A stretch of 64,000 nt of DNA from Cyclobacteriaceae bacterium (lineage in GTDB: Bacteria; Bacteroidota; Bacteroidia; Cytophagales; Cyclobacteriaceae), in the NCBI GenBank assembly GCA_016786585.1, contig JAEUUI010000022.1, positions 7,826-71,825 of the forward strand, written 5' to 3'. The notes under the pieces are model-generated. The model had not been told where the DNA came from, did not search any database, and saw only the letters and a list, made by a program, of their open reading frames with translations. Shown piece after piece: positions 11,068 through 49,455 of the stretch. Both the position numbers and the translations under genes were made by a program. Every line of letters starts with the position of its first letter. Positions within the stretch are counted from its first letter, which is position 1.

Positions 11068-11886
11068 ATGAATACGCCCGGTAAAGTCTATCGCTTGTTG
11101 AATGTGCTGAGCCTTGATGTTGCATTGGGTGCGGTTTGCTGTGCTGCGTGGTTTGCTAAAGGCTTTCAGGTTCAGCTTCGCCCGTATGCTTATTTAGCGC
11201 TTGGGTTAACCGTGTGGATCATTTATACGGCTGATCATTTGCTTGATGCCTCCAAGATTACCCGTGAGGCTTCTACGTATCGCCACCGGTTTCATCAAAA
11301 ACGTTTTAAAATATTGCTCACAATCATATTGCTGGCCGTGATTGTCGACTTCACGCTTTTATTCTTTATCCGGTTGAAGATTTTATATGCAGGCCTGGGG
11401 TTGTTTTCGATTGTGATTTTATACCTGCTTGTTAACCGGTGGCTGAGCTTTGCCAAAGAAATTGTTATTGCACTGGTATACAGCTGTGGAGTTCTATTAC
11501 CTGCGTTCTCGTTGAAACAAACTTCGCTTTCAATGTCGGACACGTTGTGGGTCGCCTCATTCTTTTTGACCACGCTGATCAATTTGATTTTATTTTCGGT
11601 ATATGATGCGCATTCCGATCAGGCCGATGGCAGCAACTCATTCGTGCTAACATTTGGCGAAGTATTCACCCGGAAAATTTTAAACGGTTTTTTTATTTTG
11701 CAGGCTGTGCTAATCGGAACGCTTGTTTACAAAGCGATGCTGCCGGTTAGTGTTGTTCTTTTTCTGATGAATGCAACCCTGCTCGTACTTTTTCTTAATC
11801 AACTTTTCTTCAGACAGTTTGACCGTTATAGGCTCTACGGAGATGTAATTTTTCTTTTCCCTGTCGTTTTACTGTATGTTGGGTAG
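11068..11886 (+). CDS. Polytopic membrane protein, UbiA-type prenyltransferase-like
   Basis: 272 aa with about 8 TM segments. Two Asp-rich motifs (YTADHLLD and YDAHSDQADG) resemble the UbiA DxxxD motifs. Confidence 0.6.
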   Translation: MNTPGKVYRLLNVLSLDVALGAVCCAAWFAKGFQVQLRPYAYLALGLTVWIIYTADHLLDASKITREASTYRHRFHQKRFKILLTIILLAVIVDFTLLFFIRLKILYAGLGLFSIVILYLLVNRWLSFAKEIVIALVYSCGVLLPAFSLKQTSLSMSDTLWVASFFLTTLINLILFSVYDAHSDQADGSNSFVLTFGEVFTRKILNGFFILQAVLIGTLVYKAMLPVSVVLFLMNATLLVLFLNQLFFRQFDRYRLYGDVIFLFPVVLLYVG

Positions 11887-12020
11887 TTTTTTACTCAAAA
11901 CACGCCTGAAAAACTTACAAAAAGTTACAAAATCTTATTTCAGCTATGGAGAATAGCCAAGACAAATTATCTTTAGAAGCCTTTATTTTAACCCATAGTC
12001 TACTCCACAAATAGGCTTCA

Positions 12021-32427: not shown

Positions 32428-33801
32428 TTACATCTTTATGTCCATTACCTTTTTTGTTTTACGGCTTTCTTCTGCCATAAAGCCCATCACATGACTCTCA
32501 ATGGATTGATCGATGGTTGACGTCAGGAGAGCCGGATTGCGTTGCGCAACGGCCTGCACCCAGTTCCCAGCCAAACGCCAGTCGCCACCCCCATGACCGT
32601 CAGTTGTTTCTTTCCACTCTTCAGTTTTACCGCTTTTAAAATTGGTGATGGTGAATGAATTCATATCACCTACAATGTCACCATGACTACCCATTACGCG
32701 TGTTCTTCTGCCACCGTATGAAGTGAATGCTTCCATGCTGAAACTGGCGGTAACGTTGTCGTCAAACAAAATGTTGGTCACGTAATGATCGGGTTGGTCG
32801 TTATCCATCCGGTAAACGCAACGGCCGTAATTGGTTGTCTTGAGTTGTTCAAGAACATAAGCGGCTTGTTTGTCTTTATCTTCCGGTAAATCGAACACAT
32901 AGTTCCATGAACGTTTGCGATAGTAAATATCCAGCGCTGAATAAGGGCAGGAGCCTTCTACCGCGCACCCGTCCGTACAACGTTCTGTGCTGCCAGCCGG
33001 TGCATTCTTTTTTGTAAACCACGACAAGTCCCCAAATGCATGAATGCTTTTGCTTGGCTTCCCGATCATCCAGCGCAGGATGTCGAGATCGTGGCACGAC
33101 TTAGCAAGAATGATAGGAGTGGTTTGCTTGCTGTTGTGCCAATTTCCACGCACATACGAATGACTCATGTGGATGTGTTCAATCGGCTCCATATGCTGAA
33201 TACTAACTACCTCACCGATAGCTTTGCTTTGGATGAGCTCGCGCAGTTTCACAAAGTACGGAGCATACCGGAGTACGTGACACACGGCTACAATGCGGCC
33301 GGTTTTTTTAGCTAACGTGAGAATATCGCGGCACTCTTTTTCACTTGGCGAAATGGGCTTTTCGAGCAGTACATCGTATCCCATCTCCAGCGCCTTCATG
33401 CAGGGGCCATAGTGCAAATTATCAGGCGTTGTGATGATGATGGCATCGGCAAACTTTGGGCGTTTAAAAACATCTTCCCACGTAACAAAACGATTTTCAT
33501 CTTTGATGGCATGTTTGGCAGCATACCGTTCGTTACGAATAGTAATTGGCTCCGCTACGCCAACAATGTCGAGCTTATCCGGATAGGCCAGCGAGTAGCC
33601 TCCGTATACATTTCCCCGGTTTCCGGCTCCGCACACAATCGCGGTAACGGGCTTATCAAGTTTTTTGTAGTTCGTGTTTTCGGGTAACAGAATCGGGTTG
33701 CCATGTTCATCGCGGGCCTCTAACGAAGCGGGTATTGCGGTAACGGCAGCTGATAATCCGAGTAAGCGAAGCGCATCGCGCCGGGAGAATTTGTTTGACA
33801 T
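32428..33801 (-). CDS. Gfo/Idh/MocA-family NAD-dependent oxidoreductase with Tat signal
   Basis: 457 aa. N-terminus MSNKFSRRDALRLLGLSAAVTAIPA. Rossmann GAGNRGNVYG and the EKP motif LLEKPIS. Confidence 0.9.
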   Translation of the reverse strand: MSNKFSRRDALRLLGLSAAVTAIPASLEARDEHGNPILLPENTNYKKLDKPVTAIVCGAGNRGNVYGGYSLAYPDKLDIVGVAEPITIRNERYAAKHAIKDENRFVTWEDVFKRPKFADAIIITTPDNLHYGPCMKALEMGYDVLLEKPISPSEKECRDILTLAKKTGRIVAVCHVLRYAPYFVKLRELIQSKAIGEVVSIQHMEPIEHIHMSHSYVRGNWHNSKQTTPIILAKSCHDLDILRWMIGKPSKSIHAFGDLSWFTKKNAPAGSTERCTDGCAVEGSCPYSALDIYYRKRSWNYVFDLPEDKDKQAAYVLEQLKTTNYGRCVYRMDNDQPDHYVTNILFDDNVTASFSMEAFTSYGGRRTRVMGSHGDIVGDMNSFTITNFKSGKTEEWKETTDGHGGGDWRLAGNWVQAVAQRNPALLTSTIDQSIESHVMGFMAEESRKTKKVMDIKM

Positions 33802-33890: not shown

Positions 33891-34661
33891 ATGTCAGTAT
33901 TAAAATCACACACCGGCCAGCGTACGGTTTTCGTTCAGTCGAAAGGGTGCAGCAATGCTGTTTTCTTTCCGGTACTCGGAGTGATTGCTGTTTCGGGTTT
34001 TGTGATTCATTACTTTTATCCTGATTTAGGTTCAATGCCCTGGGGGCCTATCAAATTTGGCTGCTGGATAATAACGGGCTTTTTTCTGGTTGTGATCTTT
34101 ATCTCGCGCGGCATTCATAATTCCACACCCCACACATTTATTTTTGATCATGAACATGGAATGGTGATTCTGCAATCAGAATCCGCACAGGAAGAGGCAT
34201 ACATTGCATACAACGAAATTGAGAAGCTTGATATCTATGTCGATGAAAGGAAATCTGACGATAGCACAACCAACTATTTTTACGGGTATCTGCAAAAACG
34301 GGATGGAAGTCAGTGGTCTTTTGTCGATTCGTTGAATGACCAAACCGTTCGTCACGCACTTGACTTGCTGCGTGAAAAAATTACACCCGACCGACCGTTT
34401 ATGCCACCGGAAAAAGCCCGGGTGAGTAATAAAATAAAAAAGGAAGAAAGCAGAACCGCCTCTTTGCTGTATTGGACTAACCGTACGGGCATGCGGTCAG
34501 TTCAACTGGCTGTATACTCCATACTGTATACAGGTGTTTTTGGCTTTTGTCTTTATGTAATCTTTGATATAAGCGGAAGGTTTCCGCCAGAGGCGAAAAT
34601 TGCCTGCTTTTTTGCTACGGCAATATTTGGTACGCTGCTGGCTTTTTGCTGGTGCAAGTGA
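33891..34661 (+). CDS. Hypothetical membrane protein (2+2 TM with a central soluble domain)
   Basis: 256-aa ORF with no recognised motif. Its stop overlaps a possible GTG start of the next gene (GTGA at 34658-34661). Confidence 0.6.
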   Translation: MSVLKSHTGQRTVFVQSKGCSNAVFFPVLGVIAVSGFVIHYFYPDLGSMPWGPIKFGCWIITGFFLVVIFISRGIHNSTPHTFIFDHEHGMVILQSESAQEEAYIAYNEIEKLDIYVDERKSDDSTTNYFYGYLQKRDGSQWSFVDSLNDQTVRHALDLLREKITPDRPFMPPEKARVSNKIKKEESRTASLLYWTNRTGMRSVQLAVYSILYTGVFGFCLYVIFDISGRFPPEAKIACFFATAIFGTLLAFCWCK

Positions 34662-34984
34662 TTCGCAGAAATCTTAAAAATCTCTTCTTACGATTTGCAC
34701 TTTCCGTGAGTGAATCTGCCGTGGAGTACTTCGAGTTTAAGAAGGGAAGCGGTGAGCGTAAAGCAAGCGTATCAGTTGCTGTAGAGGATATCGTTGCAAT
34801 CCGGTACGGTTTTCAGGCATGGCAGAATTACAAAAAGCCATTGGAGATCATTAGCCGTCGGGACCCCGACACCGCCGTTGAGTTATACATGGACAGTCTC
34901 AGTCCCATCGAATGCCTGCAGGTAGAAAACTGGTTGCAGGAAACACTCGAAGCTAAAACCGGAAGAAAGTTAAGCGGGGTTTAG
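34646..34984 (+). CDS. Small hypothetical protein whose C-terminal 69 codons are duplicated 2.3 kb downstream
   Basis: 112-aa ORF. Start is TTG at 34646 or, more plausibly, GTG at 34658, which would be translationally coupled. The C-terminal sequence VAVEDIVAIRYGFQAW...KTGRKLSGV recurs at 37091-37300. Confidence 0.55.
   Translation: MLVQVIRRNLKNLFLRFALSVSESAVEYFEFKKGSGERKASVSVAVEDIVAIRYGFQAWQNYKKPLEIISRRDPDTAVELYMDSLSPIECLQVENWLQETLEAKTGRKLSGV
34775..34984 (+). repeat. Direct repeat copy 1 (210 bp, coding 3' end)
   Basis: Hand alignment against 37091-37300 shows equal length, no indels and 13 mismatches. Confidence 0.9.
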
Positions 34985-35231: not shown

Positions 35232-36905
35232 CTAAAAATGACTAATCAAAAGATCTATTTGAGAATCAGTAACTCCAGAAGGTTTATTCTGCTTAAGAAT
35301 CTCAGCAAGAGATGATAGTCCGTAGATATGTTTTAACATCTCGGTTTCAATTCCCGGAAGGGTGTAGCCACTCACCTGGTCATCGACCAAGCCTGTTCCA
35401 CGATCTGGGTAGTAGACATTCAACTGATTGATTTTATCGACTATATCAATATAGATTGAAGTGTATTTTTCAGAGCTTTTTTTAGTCCAATATTGGTATG
35501 CATATGAATTTGGCCTACCGGGAGGTGCAGTCGGAAAATAATCTTCTCTTCCGTAATTGAAAATTCCTCTTTCTCTGTATTCAATATTTGTTATGTACCA
35601 CTCAATAGCAGTTGCCCAACTCTCCTGCAATTGAGGAGAAACTTGCCAGTACTGAAGTACCGTGTTCATTTTTATGACGTGACTTGTATGACCGGTTTCG
35701 TGGGCGGTTGTTGAGAAGATTTCGTCCGAAAGAAATTCGGAATTAATGTCAAAGTATCTCCACACTTTGATAATGGGAACAACAACCCAGTTCGTGCCAC
35801 TGGAATTGCCAACACCATCGATCGCAACGTACACGGTTCGTCTCCGGGTGAAAAAAGGGCCAGCTGCCCACCTGAGTGGTCTTTGTAATCCTCCGATATC
35901 TTTGTAGTGATATCTAAAAGCCGATCTGAAAACGTGTCCCGCAAATCGTTGATAGCTGTTATTTAAATCGTAGTTCCAATCTCCAGAAAGTTTAGGACCG
36001 TTGACCCAAAATGTTGTATTTACGATGTTATGTCGTACCGAAAATCGAGTTTGCGCAAACCAAATAGAGTAATTGCATACTTTGCTAACAGAACGACTCA
36101 TGCGAAAATTACCATTAAAGTCTGTGAATGCCGACAATACCGTAAACCAACGCCTAGCCTGGACTCTAACACCCTCCATTCCAATCCACTGTTGCAGACG
36201 AGTGTCAAATATTCTGATGCGCCCACCCGGGGTAAATCTTCTTGAAGCGGTCGATGCTATGCAATCACCACTGTCAATTAGATCTTCGTTATTGCCTGTT
36301 TGAATATAGGCTTGATTTAATAACTTATCCACAAAGCAATCGTCTTTCCCTCCCTTGGTATAATTAAAAGCAGCATCTTCCTCTGGAATATAGAGTTCAT
36401 CCAGAATTTCATATTCAATGCTTTTTTGAAATACATAGTCCGCCTTAACTGCGCTGTACTGATAAGTTGGCACACTGTCGGGCAGGCTTGCGTCATGATA
36501 ATAATCACCATTTACAAGTATTGTACTTTCAATAGGTATGTCTGAAAATACCAAGGTTGAATCAGAGTGTAAGTTTTCATACTCATCCGAATCTTTGGGT
36601 TTAAATTTCACATAGTAATGAGTTGTGCGAACATTTGTGGATGAGTTAGGTTTCACCCCCATCTTTTCCAGGTATTGCCAGGCTGTTATCATGTTCTGAA
36701 CCGTGTAAGGATTTTGTTTATTTTTTCCTAACACAGTGTTAGTTGCCTCCATATAAGGCACGTCACTTTCTATTTTTGCCTGTAAGGTTGAACTTTTTAA
36801 ACCAGCCACATTGTCGTTTGTTAACTCGTCATCCTGACAGCCAACAAAAAGTAGAGTGAACACCGATAAACTCAATGACCACAATCGTAATTTTTTATTC
36901 TTCAT
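35232..36905 (-). CDS. Lipoprotein with HExxH zinc-metalloprotease motif, family not recognised
   Basis: 557 aa. Lipobox LLFVGC. A beta-sandwich-like segment GGRIRIFDTRLQQWIGMEGVRVQARRW. TAHETGHTSH lies near the C-terminal third. About one third G+C in the lines I counted. Confidence 0.75.
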   Translation of the reverse strand: MKNKKLRLWSLSLSVFTLLFVGCQDDELTNDNVAGLKSSTLQAKIESDVPYMEATNTVLGKNKQNPYTVQNMITAWQYLEKMGVKPNSSTNVRTTHYYVKFKPKDSDEYENLHSDSTLVFSDIPIESTILVNGDYYHDASLPDSVPTYQYSAVKADYVFQKSIEYEILDELYIPEEDAAFNYTKGGKDDCFVDKLLNQAYIQTGNNEDLIDSGDCIASTASRRFTPGGRIRIFDTRLQQWIGMEGVRVQARRWFTVLSAFTDFNGNFRMSRSVSKVCNYSIWFAQTRFSVRHNIVNTTFWVNGPKLSGDWNYDLNNSYQRFAGHVFRSAFRYHYKDIGGLQRPLRWAAGPFFTRRRTVYVAIDGVGNSSGTNWVVVPIIKVWRYFDINSEFLSDEIFSTTAHETGHTSHVIKMNTVLQYWQVSPQLQESWATAIEWYITNIEYRERGIFNYGREDYFPTAPPGRPNSYAYQYWTKKSSEKYTSIYIDIVDKINQLNVYYPDRGTGLVDDQVSGYTLPGIETEMLKHIYGLSSLAEILKQNKPSGVTDSQIDLLISHF

Positions 36906-37090: not shown

Positions 37091-37300
37091 GTTGCTGTGG
37101 AGGATATCGTTGCAATCCGGTATGGTTTTCAGGCATGGGAGAATTACAAAAAACCATTGGAGATCATTAGCCGTCGGGACCCCGATACCCCCGTTGAGTT
37201 GTACATGGACAGTCTCAGTCCCATTGAATGTCTGCAGGTAGAAAACTGGTTGCAGGAGACACTCGAAGCTAAAACCGGGAGAAAGTTAAGTGGGGTGTAG
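37091..37300 (+). repeat. Direct repeat copy 2 (210 bp)
   Basis: About 94% identical to 34775-34984 by hand count (13 differences in 210 nt). Confidence 0.9.
37097..37300 (+). pseudogene. 5'-truncated paralogous copy of the 34646-34984 gene (67 codons, GTG-initiated ORF retained)
   Basis: The translation MEDIVAIRYGFQAWENYKKPLEIISRRDPDTPVELYMDSLSPIECLQVENWLQETLEAKTGRKLSGV has only 2 residue changes against the full gene. It lacks the N-terminal 40 or so codons. Whether it is expressed is unknown. Confidence 0.5.
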
Positions 37301-37314
37301 TCAAAACAAGAAGT

Positions 37315-37599
37315 TCATTTATTTCCCGCTCTCCGTTTCGAGCATACGATTATTGTTCCTACCCCGAGCAGTAAAACGGCCGGAACAAATGCAAACCAGA
37401 ACTCTCCCGAGCCGATGTCTGTGGTAAAAAATGCAATGAGCAGGAGGATGATTCCAAAAAAGAACCAGACTTTTTTTCTATTGCTTTTGTAAAGAGCTTT
37501 ATACTGATAGTCAAGAAGTTCTTTTTCAGTTTTATTCATTGAAATCAGGACTTTTATCATTTCATGGTTCACTAAAATTAGACTTTTCCCATGTACCAT
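37315..37599 (-). CDS. Small two-TM membrane protein, hypothetical
   Basis: 94-aa ORF; a more likely start is the internal MNKTEKELL at about 37539. Two hydrophobic helices. No motif. Confidence 0.45.
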   Translation of the reverse strand: MVHGKSLILVNHEMIKVLISMNKTEKELLDYQYKALYKSNRKKVWFFFGIILLLIAFFTTDIGSGEFWFAFVPAVLLLGVGTIIVCSKRRAGNK

Positions 37600-37710
37600 T
37601 CTTAGTTCCAGTGGCCTGCCTTCATATATGACAGGAGTTACAAACGGAAGTTTGCGAAATTTGAACCCGCTGAATCACATCGCCTCCACAAGTTATCAGG
37701 CTAATTATGT

Positions 37711-37941
37711 GATGTTGTTAAAATTCGCAACACGCAAACAACTATCAGCAAGCACATAGCAATTATCTGCATCGCGATTGAAATTATCAGCAAGGACTAT
37801 TAAATAATCTGCAATACAATAATTAACTATAGCAACGCCAGTGAAAATATCGGCAACGGGGTTGTTAAATTCTGCAACGGTTGTGTCAATTTCTGCAACG
37901 ACACTGTAAATATCTGCAACACTTTTGCTAATTATTGCAAG
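37711..37941. repeat. Array of 11 tandem 21-bp units with a conserved 3' half (A/T-rich, then ATCTGCAAC-like) and a variable 5' half
   Basis: GCAA(C/G/T)/GCATC cores start at 37727, 37748, 37769, 37790, 37811, 37832, 37853, 37874, 37895, 37916 and 37937. That is exactly 21 bp apart, eleven times, and the region is non-coding. Confidence 0.9.
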
Positions 37942-38070
37942 CGGGAAGGGGAGATTTCGCGTTTGGGAGGGGTTTTTGGACCTTCCTAAAAATACTTGAC
38001 ACTTTTGGGGCTGTTTACTAGAAGTGGTTTACAGGGCTAGCGGTTATTCCTGATTCAATATCAGCTGTGA

Positions 38071-38130
38071 CCAAACGTGATTTGAAATCAACTAAACTGC
38101 AAAGTTACACCGAATCCAGCCATTGATTAT
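38071..38130 (-). repeat. Reiterated intergenic module, copy X (contains TAACTTTG -7 box on the minus strand at 38100-38107)
   Basis: About 84% identical by hand alignment (51/61 columns) to 39856-39916. It lies immediately 3' of the 38155-38790 gene. Confidence 0.7.
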
Positions 38131-38154
38131 GGGCATTGCTGCGCGCTGGTTTTT

Positions 38155-39855: not shown

Positions 39856-39916
39856 ATACCAAACTTATTTTGAAAAACTAAACTACAAATTTACACTGAA
39901 CCCCGCCATTGATTAT
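39856..39916 (-). repeat. Reiterated intergenic module, copy Y (contains TAAATTTG -7 box on the minus strand at 39886-39893)
   Basis: See copy X. It lies between the 40094-41281 and 38959-39549 genes. Confidence 0.7.
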
Positions 39917-40093
39917 GCACTTTGTTGCCGGCTGTTGGCCTTTGTCCATTCAATTGCATGTTGTCCTTCAGTCCAATTCGTATTACTTTCTACTTCTGAA
40001 TTGTCGGCTTACTCTAAGTTTAGTGTGTTGGCCGCTCCGTTTTCTTTTCTCCTGTTAAATTTTTGAATATTCAAGAAAGTGAATTTCAAAGAT

Positions 40094-41543: not shown

Positions 41544-42281
41544 TTACCCCAACCTCTTCGCTACCTCATCCCAATTCACAACGTTCCACCAGTTGGTAAT
41601 GTATTCGTTGCGTTTGTTTTGGTATTTCAAATAGTAGGCGTGTTCCCAAACGTCCAGACCCAAAAGTGGTGTACCTTTTACTTCAGCAGTATCCATCAGC
41701 GGGTTATCCTGGTTGGGTGTAGAGGTGATCTGTAGCTTGCCGCTCGCATCTTTTACCAGCCACGCCCAGCCTGAACCGAACCGACCCATCGCAGCGGCAT
41801 TAAATTGTTCCATAAACTTAGGCACGGAACCGAACGATCCATCAAGCGCAGCAACAATTTTCCCATACGGAGTTCCGCTTGCGCCCGGCTTCATCACCTG
41901 CCAGAAGAAATTATGATTCCATGCACCACCGGCATTGTTGCGAACTTTGGCTGACAGCTTCGAAGCATTGTCAAAAAATTCTTTTTCCGAAGAGTACGTG
42001 AGTTTCTCTGCCACAATCGCTTCGTTCACGTTTTTAATGTACGCAGCATGATGTTTTGTATAATGAATGTCCATCGTGAGGGCATCAATGCTCGGTTCGA
42101 GTGCATTCTTCTCGTACGGCAACGGTATCTGTTTGAATTCAAATGCGGCTGCGGTTCCTGCTTTACCTAAGTTGCCGGCAGGCTGTGCAAATGCGTTCTC
42201 TAAAATGAACGATGAGCCTACGGCTGCGCCAACGGATGCTTTGAGCGAATCGCTCATAAATTTTCTGCGTGATGTTTTCAT
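41544..42281 (-). CDS. sodA: Fe/Mn-family superoxide dismutase with N-terminal Tat signal
   Basis: 245 aa. N-terminus MKTSRRKFMSDSLKASVGAAVGSSFILENAFA, then the canonical HYTKHHAAYIKNVN and GLDVWEHAYYLKYQNKR. Confidence 0.93.
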   Translation of the reverse strand: MKTSRRKFMSDSLKASVGAAVGSSFILENAFAQPAGNLGKAGTAAAFEFKQIPLPYEKNALEPSIDALTMDIHYTKHHAAYIKNVNEAIVAEKLTYSSEKEFFDNASKLSAKVRNNAGGAWNHNFFWQVMKPGASGTPYGKIVAALDGSFGSVPKFMEQFNAAAMGRFGSGWAWLVKDASGKLQITSTPNQDNPLMDTAEVKGTPLLGLDVWEHAYYLKYQNKRNEYITNWWNVVNWDEVAKRLG

Positions 42282-46719: not shown

Positions 46720-49455
46720 TTAATCATACCACAAGCCTTTCTCGCCTTTATCGTAGCGTGGCTTTTTCACCTTGTCTTTCAGGTGATCGGGCTGATTTTC
46801 GTTTTTCTTGAATAAACGCGCCCACCATAGCCTAAAGTTCGTGAGCAAGCTTCTTTCTTCGTCTGTATTGTTTTTATTCGTTTTCACGAAACGGGAATCC
46901 GGATAAAGATCTTTCTTCCTGAAAAAGTCGAAACGCTTAAGCTTGATGTTTCCCTGGTAATGGGTGGCATCAAGAAAAGCTTTGCCCGGCTCGCGCACAT
47001 GCAATGCCGCTCGTGCACTGCTTGGATTGCGTTTGTAGTCCCAGTCTCTGCGAACAACGCTGGTGTATTCGCTGGCCCGGATTGAATTTTTGCCTGGTGC
47101 AATTCCCGGCATGGAGCCATCGGCTGCGTGCGGGCGTTTCTTGTAATCTTTTTCTTTAACCTTAACCTGCAGCCCGTTTACGAGATAAGTGGTTTTATCC
47201 GGACGGCTTTTCTTCAGTGCTTCATCGGCCTGGTTAGGATTCTTCAGGTAGTTTTTCTTAAACCTCGGCAACTTAATGCTTCCGGTGTATGCTTCACCCT
47301 GATCGCGCATGGATGGTTGAAAATCAAACTGCCGTTTCTTTTGCGGGAAGTAATCGACATCCGGTTTTTCTTTTTTGCCGCCTTTAATATTTCCCTGGAA
47401 GCGTGCGAGACCTGTACTATTATTATTGCGCACCGTGGTCGGCTGCTCATTGTTGTTCCAATGTTTGCCGCTAACACTTCCGCCACCTTTCGCCTTTGGC
47501 TTGAATTTAATGTTACCCTGATAACGCGAAACGGAGGCATCACCACCGGGATAACGACCTGCGATGGCGCGACCATTATTATTCCAGCTTCCGCTGATGC
47601 TGCCACCTCCTTTTTCTTTGCGCTGAAACTTCATGTTGCCCTGGTACCGGGATACCGAAGCATCGCCACCGGGATACCGACCTGCAATGGCACGGCCATT
47701 ATTATTCCAGCTTCCGCTGATGCTGCCACCACCTTTCGCCTTGCGTTGGAATTTAACATTGCCCTGATAACGCGATACGGAAGGATCTCCACCGGCATTT
47801 CTTCCTGCGATAGCGCGGCCATTGTTATTCCAGCTTCCGCTGATGCTTCCCCCGCCTTTCGCCTTGCGTTGGAATTTAACATTCCCCTGATAACGCGATA
47901 CGGAAGGATTACCTCCGGCATTTCTTCCTGCAATGGCACGGCCATCGTTATTCCAAGAGCCGCTGATGCTTCCGCCACCGGTTACCCGCTTACGTGCCTT
48001 CATGTTACCGGTATACGTTTCACCTTGCGGTGAGTATCCCTTGCGCGGCCGTACGTTGCCTGAATAAAATCCTAAGTTTCCATTAGCCCCGGCATTCTTG
48101 CCTGCAATTGCGCGACCATTGTTGTTCCACGCGCCACTGATGCTTCCGCCACCCTTGATACGTTTGCGTGACTTCATGTTGCCGGAATATGTTTCACCTT
48201 GCGGTGAATAACCTTTGCGTGGCCGTACGTTGCCTGAATAAAATCCTAAGTTTCCGTTAGCTCCGGCATTCTTGCCTGCCACTGCACGGCCATTGTTGTT
48301 CCATGCACCGCTGATGCTTCCGCCACCTTTTATTCGTTTGCGCGATTTAAGATTGCCTGAAAAAAATCCGAGGTTGCCATTCGCCCCGGCATTTCGCGGT
48401 GCAACGGCTCTTCCTCTATTGTTCCAGCTTCCGCGACCAAGTGACCGAACGGGGTTAGCGCTGCCACCTGTGCTTATTTTTCCGGAGACCGAACGATAGC
48501 CGCTTCCCGGTAGTGATGCTGAACGACCGCGGTTTTTTCCACTGATTGATGTCGGAGGCGGAAAGATTCGCTTACCGCCCGGAGCAGGTCGTTTGGTTGA
48601 ATAGTTTCTCCCTTTGATTTTTCTGCCGGCAATGTCGCCCTTCCAGGGTCTTCCGGATTTCGATGCGGTTACATACCCTCCGCGAATCGGTCCACTGTAG
48701 GTACGATCGCCACGCGAAGGCCGCACGCGATAAGGATTAGCGGTTGGATTGATAACAACAGGCTTGCGGGTTTCAAAGTTTTTGGTGCGCAACGGGCGGC
48801 CGGCCAGATCGCCTTTGGTGTAGGGTCGTTCACCTTTTGGTTTTTGATTCCAAAATCCCGCAAAGGGTGTTGTGCTTTTCCGTGAAATGAATGGTCGCGA
48901 TGCCGTACGGGGAGCGGGAGTTCCGTTTACACGTGGTGGATTTTGTTTGGTGCCAAAACGTTTTGCGCGTGCTACCTGACTTCGGTTCGAATAAATCCGG
49001 TAACGCTGCGATCGTTGTGAAGTCGAACGATTATTGACATACCGGTTTCGTTGCGAAAAAAAGTTTCGCGTTCGTCCGGATGCTGAGCCTACAGAAATTC
49101 TTCCGCCCGACTTTGCATTTCGTTTCGAAAGTTGTCCGCTAACTGAGCGGTTATTGGTAAAAGCGTTTTGTCGGTAAAAATTACGATTCGATTTTGTTGG
49201 CCGCGATATCCGCGCGCTGCTGGCCGGAGAAAACCTTCTGGGCCGGAGGCGGTTGTACTTGGGCTTTGACTGATTCTTTTTCCGCGAAACTTTGAAACGG
49301 TTTTCACGCTTGCTGCCTGATCGGACTTCGGGCCGATCACCTTTGGTATTTTGTGCGCTTGCGTCAACGGCATTTAATCCCAATAAGATCAACACAAACC
49401 CGAAGCATAGCAGGGCCTTGCGTAAAAGTTGGGGATATGAGTTGCCTGGAGTCAA
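46720..49455 (-). CDS. Secreted, extremely basic G/N/S/R/K-rich repeat protein of unknown family
   Basis: 911-aa ORF with a signal peptide (LLCFGFVLILLGLNAVDASAQ). Residues 36-340 or so are R/K/S/N-rich low complexity. Eight WNNxGRA(I/V)AG repeats fall at about residues 344-666. A [YF]xG(N/S)[ILMV]K motif recurs along the whole length. Confidence 0.8.
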   Translation of the reverse strand: MTPGNSYPQLLRKALLCFGFVLILLGLNAVDASAQNTKGDRPEVRSGSKRENRFKVSRKKNQSKPKYNRLRPRRFSPASSARISRPTKSNRNFYRQNAFTNNRSVSGQLSKRNAKSGGRISVGSASGRTRNFFSQRNRYVNNRSTSQRSQRYRIYSNRSQVARAKRFGTKQNPPRVNGTPAPRTASRPFISRKSTTPFAGFWNQKPKGERPYTKGDLAGRPLRTKNFETRKPVVINPTANPYRVRPSRGDRTYSGPIRGGYVTASKSGRPWKGDIAGRKIKGRNYSTKRPAPGGKRIFPPPTSISGKNRGRSASLPGSGYRSVSGKISTGGSANPVRSLGRGSWNNRGRAVAPRNAGANGNLGFFSGNLKSRKRIKGGGSISGAWNNNGRAVAGKNAGANGNLGFYSGNVRPRKGYSPQGETYSGNMKSRKRIKGGGSISGAWNNNGRAIAGKNAGANGNLGFYSGNVRPRKGYSPQGETYTGNMKARKRVTGGGSISGSWNNDGRAIAGRNAGGNPSVSRYQGNVKFQRKAKGGGSISGSWNNNGRAIAGRNAGGDPSVSRYQGNVKFQRKAKGGGSISGSWNNNGRAIAGRYPGGDASVSRYQGNMKFQRKEKGGGSISGSWNNNGRAIAGRYPGGDASVSRYQGNIKFKPKAKGGGSVSGKHWNNNEQPTTVRNNNSTGLARFQGNIKGGKKEKPDVDYFPQKKRQFDFQPSMRDQGEAYTGSIKLPRFKKNYLKNPNQADEALKKSRPDKTTYLVNGLQVKVKEKDYKKRPHAADGSMPGIAPGKNSIRASEYTSVVRRDWDYKRNPSSARAALHVREPGKAFLDATHYQGNIKLKRFDFFRKKDLYPDSRFVKTNKNNTDEERSLLTNFRLWWARLFKKNENQPDHLKDKVKKPRYDKGEKGLWYD
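47386..48438 (-). repeat. Intragenic tandem repeats (about 120-177 bp units) inside the basic repeat protein gene
   Basis: WNN motifs start at residues 344, 384, 442, 501, 542, 583, 624 and 666, giving spacings of 40, 58, 59, 41, 41, 41 and 42 aa. Adjacent DNA units are highly similar by eye. Confidence 0.85.

What the first reader, a model, noticed from the sequence alone, without database searches (positions are those of the whole stretch)
37711..37941. Perfectly phased array of eleven 21-bp half-conserved repeats in a 555-bp non-coding gap (iteron- or centromere-like)
The array has eleven consecutive units of exactly 21 bp, about two helical turns each.
- **Unit structure:** each unit ends in an A/T-rich stretch plus ATC(T/A)GCAA(C/G). 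Examples are GACACTGTAAATATCTGCAAC, GGTTGTGTCAATTTCTGCAAC and GGGGTTGTTAAATTCTGCAAC.
- **Variable half:** the first 8 nt or so of each unit vary freely.
- **Phasing:** the cores start at 37727, 37748 and so on to 37937 with no slippage. That would place any bound protein on one face of the helix.
- **Possible flanking copies:** a degenerate unit may precede the array (ATCAGGCTA at about 37694). An inverted, indel-containing look-alike (GTTTGCGAAATTTGAAC, 37650-37666) lies about 60 bp away.
- **Coding ruled out:** the frame that would give a heptad peptide is interrupted by TAA.

The architecture matches plasmid or phage replication iterons, ParR/ParB-type centromeres, or multi-site transposase or regulator landing pads. 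However, no rep, par, integrase or HTH gene is visible nearby. The array sits inside an AT-rich accessory region, downstream of a conserved promoter-bearing module, so it could also be transcribed as a repeat RNA.
Basis: partly seen in the sequence, partly recalled or inferred. Interest (0 to 1): 0.72.

Follow-up and report, generated by a model that had tools for sequence, protein, structure and literature searches.

The report
Orphan phased 21-bp DNA repeat array
A real, non-coding run of eleven 21-bp repeats with a conserved 11-12-bp core lies at the edge of a gene-swapping hotspot in a Cyclobacteriaceae chromosome; it looks like a landing pad for an unidentified DNA-binding protein, not a replication origin or a gene.

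Summary
Eleven units of exactly 21 bp (37711-37941) give the strongest periodic signal in the window. Read on the minus strand, each unit is sTTGCnGAWWWT plus about 9 variable bases.

The window comes from a Cyclobacteriaceae (Bacteroidota) chromosome. The array sits between housekeeping genes, at the edge of a variable accessory and defence hotspot.

Three related lineages carry the same array with 11, 8 and 12 units. More distant relatives with the same gene order lack it.

Core positions are significantly more conserved than the rest, both among units (P=0.0003) and between strains (5/110 vs 22/121 variable sites, p=0.0017).

The minus strand reads as an open heptad frame, but coding is rejected:
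- it has no start codon;
- third codon positions are invariant;
- most codon changes are nonsynonymous;
- one relative has a frameshift.

No RNA structure, Rfam hit, or phage or plasmid similarity was found. No rep, par, integrase, DnaA boxes or unwinding element lies nearby.

Best reading (about 0.4): a cis-acting, one-face array of direct-repeat half-sites on predicted curved DNA, bound by a protein encoded elsewhere. The architecture resembles iterons and LytTR sites, but the array meets the defining features of neither family.

The parts
37711..37941 (-). Array of eleven 21-bp direct repeats (u11 at 37941-37921 down to u1 at 37731-37711). Minus-strand consensus is sTTGCnGAWWWT followed by about 9 variable nt.
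   Evidence: register, periodicity, chance. (position-specific conservation). Orthologous arrays are in L133/L336 (11 units), L134-137 (8 units) and L334/335 (12 units).
37921..37941 (-). First unit, u11 (CTTGCAATAATTAGCAAAAGT). It is internally palindromic (TTGC-N8-GCAA), so it carries a core match on both strands.
   Evidence: a + strand core hit at 37924 scoring 11.2, and a minus-strand hit at 37941 scoring 11.7.
37942..38045 (-). C-rich leader that travels with the array. It is about 95% identical over 92% of its length in L334; the last 38 bp are shared with L133 and the last ~26 bp with L134. The junctions with the variable cargo lie in or just upstream of it.
37651..37662 (+). Single inverted core site (TTTGCGAAATTT) facing the last unit across 57 bp.
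   Evidence: pair I3, 11 nt, 91% complementary. It is conserved in L133 and L334. It occurs as TTTGCGATATTT in L134 and in the array-less relative L264.
37628..37696 (.). Spacer segment conserved in all array-bearing relatives and partly in array-less L264. It contains the inverted site.
38090..38131 (-). 42-bp module with the Bacteroidota -7 box TAACTTTG (38107-38100). It could drive transcription through the leader and array in this strain only.
   Evidence: No intrinsic terminator is predicted between it and the array. The module is absent upstream of the array in L133, L134 and L334.
37315..37539 (-). Downstream 74-aa gene for a two-helix membrane protein. It is the only constant coding neighbour of the array, and it is also present in relatives that lack the array.
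   Evidence: 96-99% nucleotide identity; 2-5 amino-acid differences among array-bearing strains.

Best explanation
The array is a cis-acting DNA element. It consists of eleven head-to-tail half-sites (minus strand sTTGCnGAWWWT, about one helical turn each), each followed by about 9 unconstrained bases. Successive sites are therefore exactly two helical turns apart and face the same side of the helix.

**Most likely mechanism.** A sequence-specific DNA-binding protein encoded elsewhere in the genome recognises single half-sites as direct repeats. It loads cooperatively along one face of intrinsically curved DNA and forms an extended or wrapped nucleoprotein complex. The complex ends at an inverted site 57 bp beyond the last unit.

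**Most likely effect.** The complex would have a regulatory or architectural effect on the adjacent DNA: the downstream small membrane-protein gene and the boundary of the variable accessory/defence island. Replication or partition is unlikely.

**Shown:**
- the repeat geometry;
- nucleotide-level constraint on the core;
- conservation of the module across strains while both flanks are swapped;
- absence of coding and RNA-structure signals.

**Inferred:**
- that a protein binds;
- the identity of that protein;
- the biological effect.
For: - **Geometry:** the 21-bp register is perfect over 11 units. It is the strongest periodicity in the window (z about 7.5), with 0 matches in shuffles.
- **Constraint among units:** unit positions 3, 4, 5 and 12 are invariant, while positions 17-20 are near random. 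Heterogeneity P=0.0003.
- **Constraint between strains:** pooled variable orthologous sites are 5/110 in the core vs 22/121 elsewhere (Fisher p=0.0017). Positions 1-5, 9, 10 and 12 never vary. For window vs L133 alone the counts are 1/110 vs 11/121, p=0.006, and the single core change moves toward the consensus.
- **Rate calibration:** the array as a whole diverges like the flanking non-coding DNA, but its core is 3-5 times more conserved.
- **Nucleotide-level, not peptide-level, constraint:** T is invariant at codon third positions (unit positions 3 and 12), while the encoded residues vary.
- **Discrete module:** in L134, homology to the window is confined to about 26 bp of leader, the array and 4 bp beyond it. 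Upstream cargo differs in all four lineages, and L134 also has an insertion downstream of its array.
- **Extra site:** an additional inverted core site is conserved, even in an array-less relative.
- **Predicted curvature:** end-to-end/contour ratio 0.61 vs 0.93 +/- 0.06 for window tiles; only 0.3% of tiles are as bent.
- **Precedents:** LytTR regulators bind 9-11-nt repeats separated by 11-13 nt (PMC4847170). BldC forms head-to-tail multimers on variable numbers of direct repeats (PMC5859096). Rep_3 iterons of the same unit length were seen in session on L124.
Against: - No binding protein is identified, and none is encoded within 64 kb.
- The motif is not enriched anywhere else in the window.
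- No homologous array was found in genome, viral, plasmid, phage or metagenome searches. The genome scan, however, used a mis-specified pattern.
- The array is absent from relatives with the same synteny, so it is dispensable.
- Unit number varies (8, 11, 12), and one variant has a 20-bp duplication that shifts the phase by 1 bp. Phasing is therefore not strictly enforced.
- The constraint statistics rest on 27 variable sites in four non-independent sequences. Six of the differences cluster in one unit of L133.
- The curvature estimate uses wedge parameters recalled from memory.
Confidence: 0.4

Rival explanations
1. A functionless minisatellite (VNTR). A 21-bp unit was amplified by slippage or unequal crossing-over in an accessory region, and the array is now drifting and decaying.
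For: - The array is restricted to a young subclade and absent from syntenic relatives.
- Copy number varies (8, 11, 12), including a 63-bp loss and a 20-bp slipped duplication.
- Overall divergence equals that of flanking non-coding DNA.
- There is no partner gene and no other copies of the motif.
Against: - Uniform decay does not explain four invariant positions next to near-random ones (P=0.0003).
- It also does not explain the 4-fold deficit of between-strain changes in the core (p=0.0017).
- Units differ from each other by about 50% in the variable half. That is far more than the 1-13% divergence between strains, so the array is older than the strain splits and its core has been held.
- The module persists intact while both flanks are replaced.
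Confidence: 0.2
2. A relic or decoy iteron array. It would be left by, or directed against, a plasmid or phage replicon, as with the copy-control arrays of iteron plasmids. It would bind an initiator (Rep) protein that is not encoded here.
For: - The architecture is that of iterons: 21-bp units in direct orientation, phased, with 8-12 copies. An inverted copy sits near the end, like a rep-promoter operator.
- True 21-bp iterons upstream of a Rep3_C protein were seen on L124.
- The array lies in an accessory/defence hotspot; in L133 it is next to a type VI retron.
Against: - No rep, par, integrase or transposase gene occurs in 64 kb.
- There are no DnaA boxes or AT-rich unwinding element nearby.
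- There is no similarity to 72,556 plasmids or 50,697 phage records.
- Only one half of each unit is conserved. From my own knowledge, two-domain Rep initiators usually constrain most of an iteron.
- A dead relic would not keep its core under constraint.
Confidence: 0.13
3. The array acts through sequence-directed DNA shape alone. Phased A/T tracts make a static bend that influences promoter geometry or local recombination at the hotspot edge, without a dedicated sequence-specific protein.
For: - One A/T-rich block per 21 bp lies in helical phase.
- Predicted curvature is in the top 0.3% of the window and the top 0.7% of shuffles.
- Cargo junctions cluster within about 30-130 bp upstream of the array.
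Against: - Curvature does not explain the invariant G4 and C5, or the orientation-specific core.
- The junctions are not at one precise point.
- The curvature model is approximate, because the parameters were recalled from memory.
Confidence: 0.08
4. The array is transcribed and works as RNA. It would be a repeat-rich 5' leader, or a sponge RNA presenting 11 copies of UUGCnGAU to an RNA-binding protein.
For: - In the window, a Bacteroidota -7 box (TAACTTTG, 38107-38100) lies 166 nt upstream on the same strand.
- No terminator is predicted before the array or before the downstream 74-aa gene.
Against: - No such box is conserved upstream of the array in L134 or L334, and in L133 the nearest box is about 295 nt away in unrelated DNA.
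- There is no Rfam match.
- Folding is no better than shuffles on either strand (z = -0.57 and +1.38).
- The inverted extra site fits DNA recognition better than RNA recognition.
Confidence: 0.08
5. The minus strand encodes a heptad-repeat micro-protein, (V/L/I)-A-(D/E)-x-x-x-x repeated 11 times.
For: - All 11 units lie in one stop-free minus-strand frame of 107 codons.
- The 'variable' base before GCAA is the wobble base of an Ala codon, and all four Ala codons are used.
Against: - The frame has no ATG at all. The first GTG or TTG falls in the ninth of the 11 units.
- Unit positions 3 and 12 are codon third positions, yet they are invariant T while the residues vary.
- Between-strain differences by codon position are 7/1/4 and 4/4/7. 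Changed codons are 3 synonymous vs 8 nonsynonymous, and 6 vs 7.
- L334 has a 20-bp insertion that frameshifts into TAA.
- There is no Pfam match, and NCBI annotates no gene here.
Confidence: 0.02

Closest known systems
Iterons of theta-replicating plasmids (Rep_3, RepA, pi or TrfA type) and their copy-control arrays (such as P1 incA and F incC; own knowledge)
   Same: - Tandem direct repeats of about 19-22 bp, phased at two helical turns, in 4-12 copies.
- An inverted partial copy lies nearby.
   Different: - No initiator gene, DnaA boxes, unwinding element or replicon context. The locus is a syntenic chromosomal site.
- Only half of each unit is conserved.
- No sequence similarity to any plasmid or phage record.
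Binding sites of LytTR-domain response regulators (AgrA, ComE, YpdB and others)
   Same: - The geometry matches: 9-11-nt direct repeats separated by 11-13 nt, so 20-24 bp centre to centre (PMC4847170). Here the core is 11-12 nt and the spacer 9-10 nt, giving 21 bp.
- A His_kinase/LytTR pair sits beside the same 74-aa gene in some array-less relatives (L258, L259, L261).
   Different: - Known LytTR sites come as pairs close to a promoter, not as runs of 8-12.
- No LytTR gene is in the window.
- The core does not resemble the LytTR motifs I know.
- The relatives with the adjacent LytTR pair are the ones that lack the array.
Plasmid centromeres made of repeat arrays (ParR-parC of R1 and pSK41, omega heptads, SopB-sopC; own knowledge)
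   Same: Many phased direct repeats are bound cooperatively, so that DNA wraps into a higher-order complex. Such arrays often double as operators.
   Different: - No partition genes occur anywhere in 64 kb.
- The site is chromosomal and dispensable among close relatives.
- The unit length and half-site layout differ from those examples.
BldC-type head-to-tail multimerisation on direct repeats
   Same: A small regulator binds variable numbers of direct repeats head to tail. It reads AT-rich segments plus one G-C contact and bends the DNA (PMC5859096).
   Different: - BldC repeats are about 9 bp and contiguous, not spaced at 21 bp.
- BldC is actinobacterial.
- No BldC-like gene was identified here.
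Other long 21-bp intergenic arrays in Bacteroidota found here (L090 Mariniphaga, L017 Thermophagus)
   Same: - They are intergenic and have a TTGC-containing core in 21-bp register, with 12-14 units.
- L090's array ends at a -7 box 35 nt upstream of an HTH_26 gene, in the same orientation relative to the downstream gene.
- L090 gives the best non-orthologous alignment to the window array (67% over 125 bp).
   Different: - Similarity beyond the core is within what selection on the core plus AT-richness would give, so homology is not established.
- L090 has a 42-bp super-repeat of nearly identical copies.
- The neighbouring genes are different.

Membership tests
Replication iterons / plasmid or phage origin | Tandem direct repeats of about 17-22 bp phased with the helical repeat | tested here: met
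   11 units of exactly 21 bp.
Replication iterons / plasmid or phage origin | A cognate initiator (Rep) gene in cis | tested here: not met
   Pfam scans of 39 of the window's 55 large ORFs (>=90 aa), including every island gene and both neighbours of the array, found no Rep family. The unknown island proteins have no Rep-like hits in NCBIfam or PADLOC.
Replication iterons / plasmid or phage origin | Adjacent DnaA boxes and an AT-rich unwinding element | tested here: not met
   The nearest DnaA-box-like sites (at most 1 mismatch) are at 36636 and 39160, and the window count equals chance. The flanks are 30-48% GC with no distinct AT-rich block.
Replication iterons / plasmid or phage origin | Located on a replicon or an integrated mobile element; similar to known replicons | tested here: not met
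   The array lies in a syntenic chromosomal interval between SOD and a Gfo/Idh/MocA oxidoreductase in all relatives. There is no match in the phage or plasmid collections.
Replication iterons / plasmid or phage origin | Supports autonomous replication, or exerts incompatibility | not testable with these tools
   Needs a replication or incompatibility assay.
ParR/ParB-type centromere | Repeat array adjacent to a partition operon (ParA/ParM/TubZ plus an adaptor) | tested here: not met
   No partition-family domains in the window.
LytTR regulator binding site | 9-11-nt repeats separated by 11-13 nt (PMC4847170) | tested here: inconclusive
   The core is 11-12 nt and the spacer 9-10 nt, so the 21-bp centre-to-centre distance lies within the 20-24-bp range. 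The spacer itself is slightly short.
LytTR regulator binding site | Usually a pair of repeats just upstream of the regulated promoter | tested here: not met
   There are 8-12 repeats. No promoter box is conserved in a fixed position relative to the array.
LytTR regulator binding site | A cognate LytTR protein that binds the motif | not testable with these tools
   None in the window.
Protein-coding heptad repeat | Start codon, coding-type substitution pattern, and a reading frame preserved in relatives | tested here: not met
   No ATG, and the first GTG/TTG is late in the frame. Third codon positions are invariant. Changed codons are 3 synonymous vs 8 nonsynonymous, and 6 vs 7. L334 is frameshifted into TAA.
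Structured non-coding RNA | Stable or conserved secondary structure, or a match to a known family | tested here: not met
   No Rfam hit at gathering threshold. Folding z-scores are -0.57 and +1.38.
CRISPR array | Repeats of 24-48 nt with spacers of similar size and cas genes nearby (own knowledge) | tested here: not met
   The unit is 21 bp in total, with about 9 variable nt. No cas-family domains in the window.

The most novel reading that the evidence does not exclude
The array is a selectively maintained chromosomal 'orphan iteron' array that works in trans on foreign DNA. Sitting at the edge of a defence hotspot (next to a type VI retron in one strain), it would titrate or handcuff the initiator or partition protein of an invading plasmid or phage. 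That would be a DNA-only incompatibility or defence element. Alternatively, it could nucleate a protein-bound boundary that organises cargo exchange at the hotspot. Nothing in the evidence excludes either version, and nothing directly supports either.
Probability: 0.08. Interest if true: 0.8.

Novelty: new variant of a known kind. Interest (0 to 1): 0.4.

Why it matters
If a protein does load on this array, it would be a chromosomal, partner-less example of the phased direct-repeat architecture known mainly from plasmid origins, centromeres and a few regulators. It would also be in Bacteroidota, where such elements are barely described.

Its position at the edge of a hotspot that swaps defence and accessory genes makes it a possible handle on how such hotspots are delimited or regulated.

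As it stands, it is a well-defined and testable cis element of unknown partner. It is restricted to a small clade and is probably of local importance.

Tried and rejected
- **Coding heptad peptide on the minus strand.** I took this seriously because the frame is open across all units. It was rejected on the lack of a start codon, invariant third codon positions, the substitution pattern and a frameshifted relative.
- **Structured RNA or a known RNA family.** No Rfam match, no tRNA genes, and folding no better than shuffles.
- **Linkage to the upstream 211-aa gene.** Its homologs at 68-79% identity in other Bacteroidota have no array and sit among immunity-type genes.
- **Genome-collection scan.** I mis-specified the pattern, placing the T at unit position 13 instead of 12. 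Only analogues (L017, L090, L124) came out of it.
- **Viral scans.** Both returned coding heptad repeats and perfect tandem repeats.
- **Metagenome scan with three consensus cores.** It found no homologous array, only unrelated 4 x 21-bp repeats upstream of genes on small contigs, plus coding repeats.
- **Phage and plasmid BLAST.** No match.
- **Homology of the L090 array to this one.** It gives the best alignment, but the similarity is not beyond what a shared core and AT-richness would give. L090's HTH is unrelated to L133's HTH.
- **A single precise recombination (att) site.** The cargo junctions differ by tens of bases between lineages.
- **A regulon.** The motif is not enriched outside the array, and all other hits are inside genes.
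- **Origin features.** No DnaA boxes or unwinding element.
- **The 'degenerate unit' at about 37694.** It is out of register and has no core match.
Full report
**Observation.** The sequence shows GCAA (GCAT once) at 37727, 37748 ... 37937. That gives eleven units of exactly 21 bp spanning 37711-37941. Lag-21 self-identity is 0.529, against a window-wide mean of 0.267 +/- 0.035. It is the highest periodic signal for any lag from 5 to 60 in the 64 kb. Tandem Repeats Finder reports period 21 in two pieces. A four-unit phased core pattern matches five times here and never in 100 shuffles.

**Anatomy.** On the minus strand each unit reads s-T-T-G-C-n-G/A-A-W-W-W-T followed by about 9 variable bases. 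Positions 3, 4, 5 and 12 are invariant in all 11 units, while positions 17-20 are close to random.
- The first unit (u11, CTTGCAATAATTAGCAAAAGT) is palindromic (TTGC-N8-GCAA), so it carries a core on both strands.
- A single extra core (TTTGCGAAATTT, + strand, 37651-37662) lies 57 bp beyond the last unit and faces it. The pair is 11 nt long and 91% complementary.
- A simple wedge model, using parameters I recalled from memory, predicts strong static curvature. The end-to-end/contour ratio is 0.61, against 0.93 +/- 0.06 for window tiles, and only 0.3% of tiles are as bent. This fits one A/T block per two helical turns.

**Genomic setting.** Exact protein look-ups place the window in a Cyclobacteriaceae bacterium MAG (JNJ75_ locus tags). 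NCBI annotates no gene over the array.
- The 64 kb is ordinary chromosome: ATP synthase, IMPDH, glutamate synthase, SurA-like rotamases, MoxR and so on. It has no Rep, Par, integrase, transposase or LytTR gene.
- The array lies in a low-GC interval (about 34-42 kb) between a superoxide dismutase gene (41544-42281) and a Gfo/Idh/MocA oxidoreductase gene (32428-33801).
- Upstream on the minus strand are three small genes of unknown function (395, 196 and 211 aa). A 42-bp module that carries a Bacteroidota -7 box (TAnnTTTG) lies downstream of the 395-aa gene and again downstream of the 211-aa gene (38090-38131 and 39876-39917).
- Downstream is a small ORF. Conservation shows it to be a 74-aa protein with two membrane helices (37315-37539).

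**Relatives.** Public contigs encoding the 211-aa neighbour exactly are 100% identical to the window and so are uninformative. Its more distant homologs have no array and sit among immunity-type genes. The useful anchor was the 74-aa protein.
- **L133/L336** (96% identical across the array region) have the same 11 units. The upstream island is replaced by a type VI retron on the other strand.
- **L134-L137** (about 88% identical) have 8 units, having lost exactly 63 bp. Homology to the window is confined to about 26 bp of leader, the array and 4 bp beyond it. The array is separated from the small ORF by a 2.7-kb insertion.
- **L334/L335** have 12 units. The extra unit is a 20-bp duplicate of u5. 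This is the simplest layout: SOD, a 146-aa gene, the leader, the array, then the 74-aa gene.
- **L258-L266**, more distant relatives with the same synteny (SOD about 84% identical), lack the array and show no 21-bp periodicity. One of them, L264, still keeps the inverted single site.

The array is thus a discrete module confined to a young subclade. It is retained while both flanks are exchanged.

**Constraint.**
- Among units, four invariant positions next to near-random ones are not expected from uniform decay (P=0.0003; variance P=0.0024).
- Between strains, variable orthologous sites number 5/110 in core positions (2-5 and 7-12) against 22/121 elsewhere (Fisher p=0.0017). Positions 1-5, 9, 10 and 12 never vary.
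- For window vs L133 alone the counts are 1/110 vs 11/121 (p=0.006), and the one core change moves toward the consensus.
- Overall the array diverges like its non-coding flanks: 95%, 99% and 87% identity, against 95-97%, 95-98% and 83-86% for the flanks. Its core is therefore 3-5 times more conserved than neutral-looking DNA.
- Caveats: only 27 variable sites, four non-independent sequences, and six differences clustered in one unit of L133.

**Coding is rejected.** On the minus strand all units lie in one stop-free frame of 107 codons reading (V/L/I)-A-(D/E)-x-x-x-x, and the 'variable' base is an Ala wobble position. I reject coding for these reasons:
- The frame has no ATG, and the first GTG or TTG falls in the ninth of the 11 units.
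- Unit positions 3 and 12 are third codon positions, yet they are invariant T while the encoded residues vary (I, F, V, Y, N, S). This is the opposite of coding constraint.
- Between-strain differences fall 7/1/4 and 4/4/7 by codon position. Changed codons are 3 synonymous vs 8 nonsynonymous, and 6 vs 7.
- The 20-bp duplication in L334 frameshifts into TAA.
- There is no Pfam match.

**RNA is unlikely.** There is no Rfam match or tRNA gene. Folding energy is no better than shuffles on either strand (z = -0.57 and +1.38). In the window a TAACTTTG box lies 166 nt upstream with no predicted terminator in between. That module belongs to the strain-specific cargo, however, and no box is conserved upstream of the array in L134 or L334.

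**Origin and centromere features are not met.** There is no initiator or partition gene. There are no DnaA boxes nearby, and the window count is at chance. There is no AT-rich unwinding block. There is no similarity to phage or plasmid records. The locus is syntenic chromosome. The motif is not enriched elsewhere in the window, and all other hits are inside genes.

**Searches for the same kind elsewhere.**
- My one genome-collection scan used a pattern with the T one position off, so it returned generic 21-bp repeats. I record this as an error.
- From those hits, ranking by the array's weight matrix surfaced analogues. L124 is a Fusobacteriaceae 4.2-kb contig with five 21-bp units upstream of a Rep3_C protein and a ParA-like ORF, which makes them true iterons. 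L090 (Mariniphaga) has a 12-14-unit array ending at a -7 box 35 nt before an HTH_26 gene. L017 (Thermophagus) has a 13-unit intergenic array.
- L090 gives the best alignment to the window array (67% over 125 bp). Periodic sequences inflate such scores, and the similarity beyond the core is not convincing.
- Viral scans and a consensus-core metagenome scan found no homolog.

**Interpretation.** The evidence best fits a cis-acting array of head-to-tail half-sites presented on one face of curved DNA, with a terminal inverted site, recognised by a protein encoded elsewhere. This is inferred from geometry and constraint; no binder is shown. The geometry equals that of iterons. It is also close to the LytTR rule of 9-11-nt repeats with 11-13-nt spacers (PMC4847170), although the spacer here is slightly short. 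BldC shows that regulators can multimerise head to tail on variable numbers of direct repeats (PMC5859096). Membership in the iteron, centromere or LytTR families is not supported, because defining features were tested and not met. I put this explanation at about 0.4. The rivals are:
- a functionless minisatellite, 0.2;
- a relic or decoy iteron array, 0.13;
- a shape-only curved element, 0.08;
- a transcribed repeat RNA, 0.08;
- a micro-protein, 0.02.

**Novelty and interest.** The array is a chromosomal, partner-less, half-site variant of a known architecture. It is lineage-restricted and dispensable among close relatives. It is a clean, testable element, and its position at the edge of a defence/accessory hotspot is suggestive, but nothing here would overturn expectations. 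Interest is 0.4. The most novel reading not excluded is a DNA-only decoy or boundary element acting on foreign replicons or on cargo exchange (probability about 0.08).

Noticed in passing
L133 2611-4000 (minus strand), adjacent to that strain's copy of the array: A type VI retron (PADLOC RT_VI 3.7e-74, HTH_VI 4e-26, SP_VI 7.5e-6) occupies the position where the window has three unknown genes. The interval between SOD and the array is therefore a defence/accessory hotspot.
   Followed up: partly
window 38090-38131 and 39876-39917: A 42-bp module (88% identical) is repeated in the accessory island, downstream of the 211-aa and 395-aa genes. Each copy carries a Bacteroidota -7 box (TAACTTTG / TAAATTTG) on the minus strand. 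The layout resembles cassette-type promoter repeats.
   Followed up: partly
window 37091-37300 and 34775-34984: A 210-bp direct duplication (94% identical) brackets the 557-aa gene of unknown function (35232-36905, minus strand), which is absent from L133 and L334. The duplicated piece is the 3' end of a 364-aa gene. In the window that gene appears frameshifted (33891-34661 plus 34646-34984).
   Followed up: partly
window 46720-49455 (minus strand): A 911-aa ORF with no Pfam match contains long tandem repeats (periods 123 and 174 bp, 47483-48342). They encode Gly/Asn-rich units such as GGGSISGSWNNNGRAIAGRNAGG.
   Followed up: no
L009-L012, L262-L266 (homologs of the window's 211-aa protein and neighbouring loci): The 211-aa neighbour belongs to a widespread Bacteroidota family with no Pfam domain. 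Elsewhere it sits beside immunity-type genes (Imm33, Imm-NTF2-2, DUF4272). SUKH/SMI1 genes also occur in the same hotspot in relatives.
   Followed up: partly
L090 3287-3540 (Mariniphaga MAG); L017 3356-3619 (Thermophagus): Other long intergenic 21-bp arrays with a TTGC core occur in Bacteroidota. L090's array has a 42-bp super-repeat and ends at a TATATTTG box 35 nt upstream of a Cro/C1-type HTH_26 gene. This may be a recurrent regulatory architecture.
   Followed up: partly
L124 1925-2029 (Fusobacteriaceae MAG, 4.2-kb contig): Five 21-bp units (GTTGCAGATAGGTTCA...) lie directly upstream of a 577-aa protein with a Rep3_C domain and next to a ParA-like ORF. This is a small plasmid replicon with true iterons.
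   Followed up: partly
L320, L322, L325, L326, L330, L333 (metagenome Ga0080003 contigs): Four 21-bp repeats (GTTGCCGATTTT...) lie just upstream of a TTGACA-type promoter and a ribosome-binding site on several small contigs. They look like iteron or operator sets of a plasmid family.
   Followed up: no
window ~11751-11980: This is the most strongly curved DNA predicted in the window (end-to-end/contour ratio 0.445). It coincides with 10-bp AAAAACTTAC repeats at 11909-11937 between two genes.
   Followed up: no
window 37943-37972 (+ strand): The leader next to the array has four G-runs on the + strand (GGGAAGGGGAGATTTCGCGTTTGGGAGGGG), a possible G-quadruplex motif with one long loop. The runs are broken in L133 and L334, so it is probably not conserved.
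   Followed up: no
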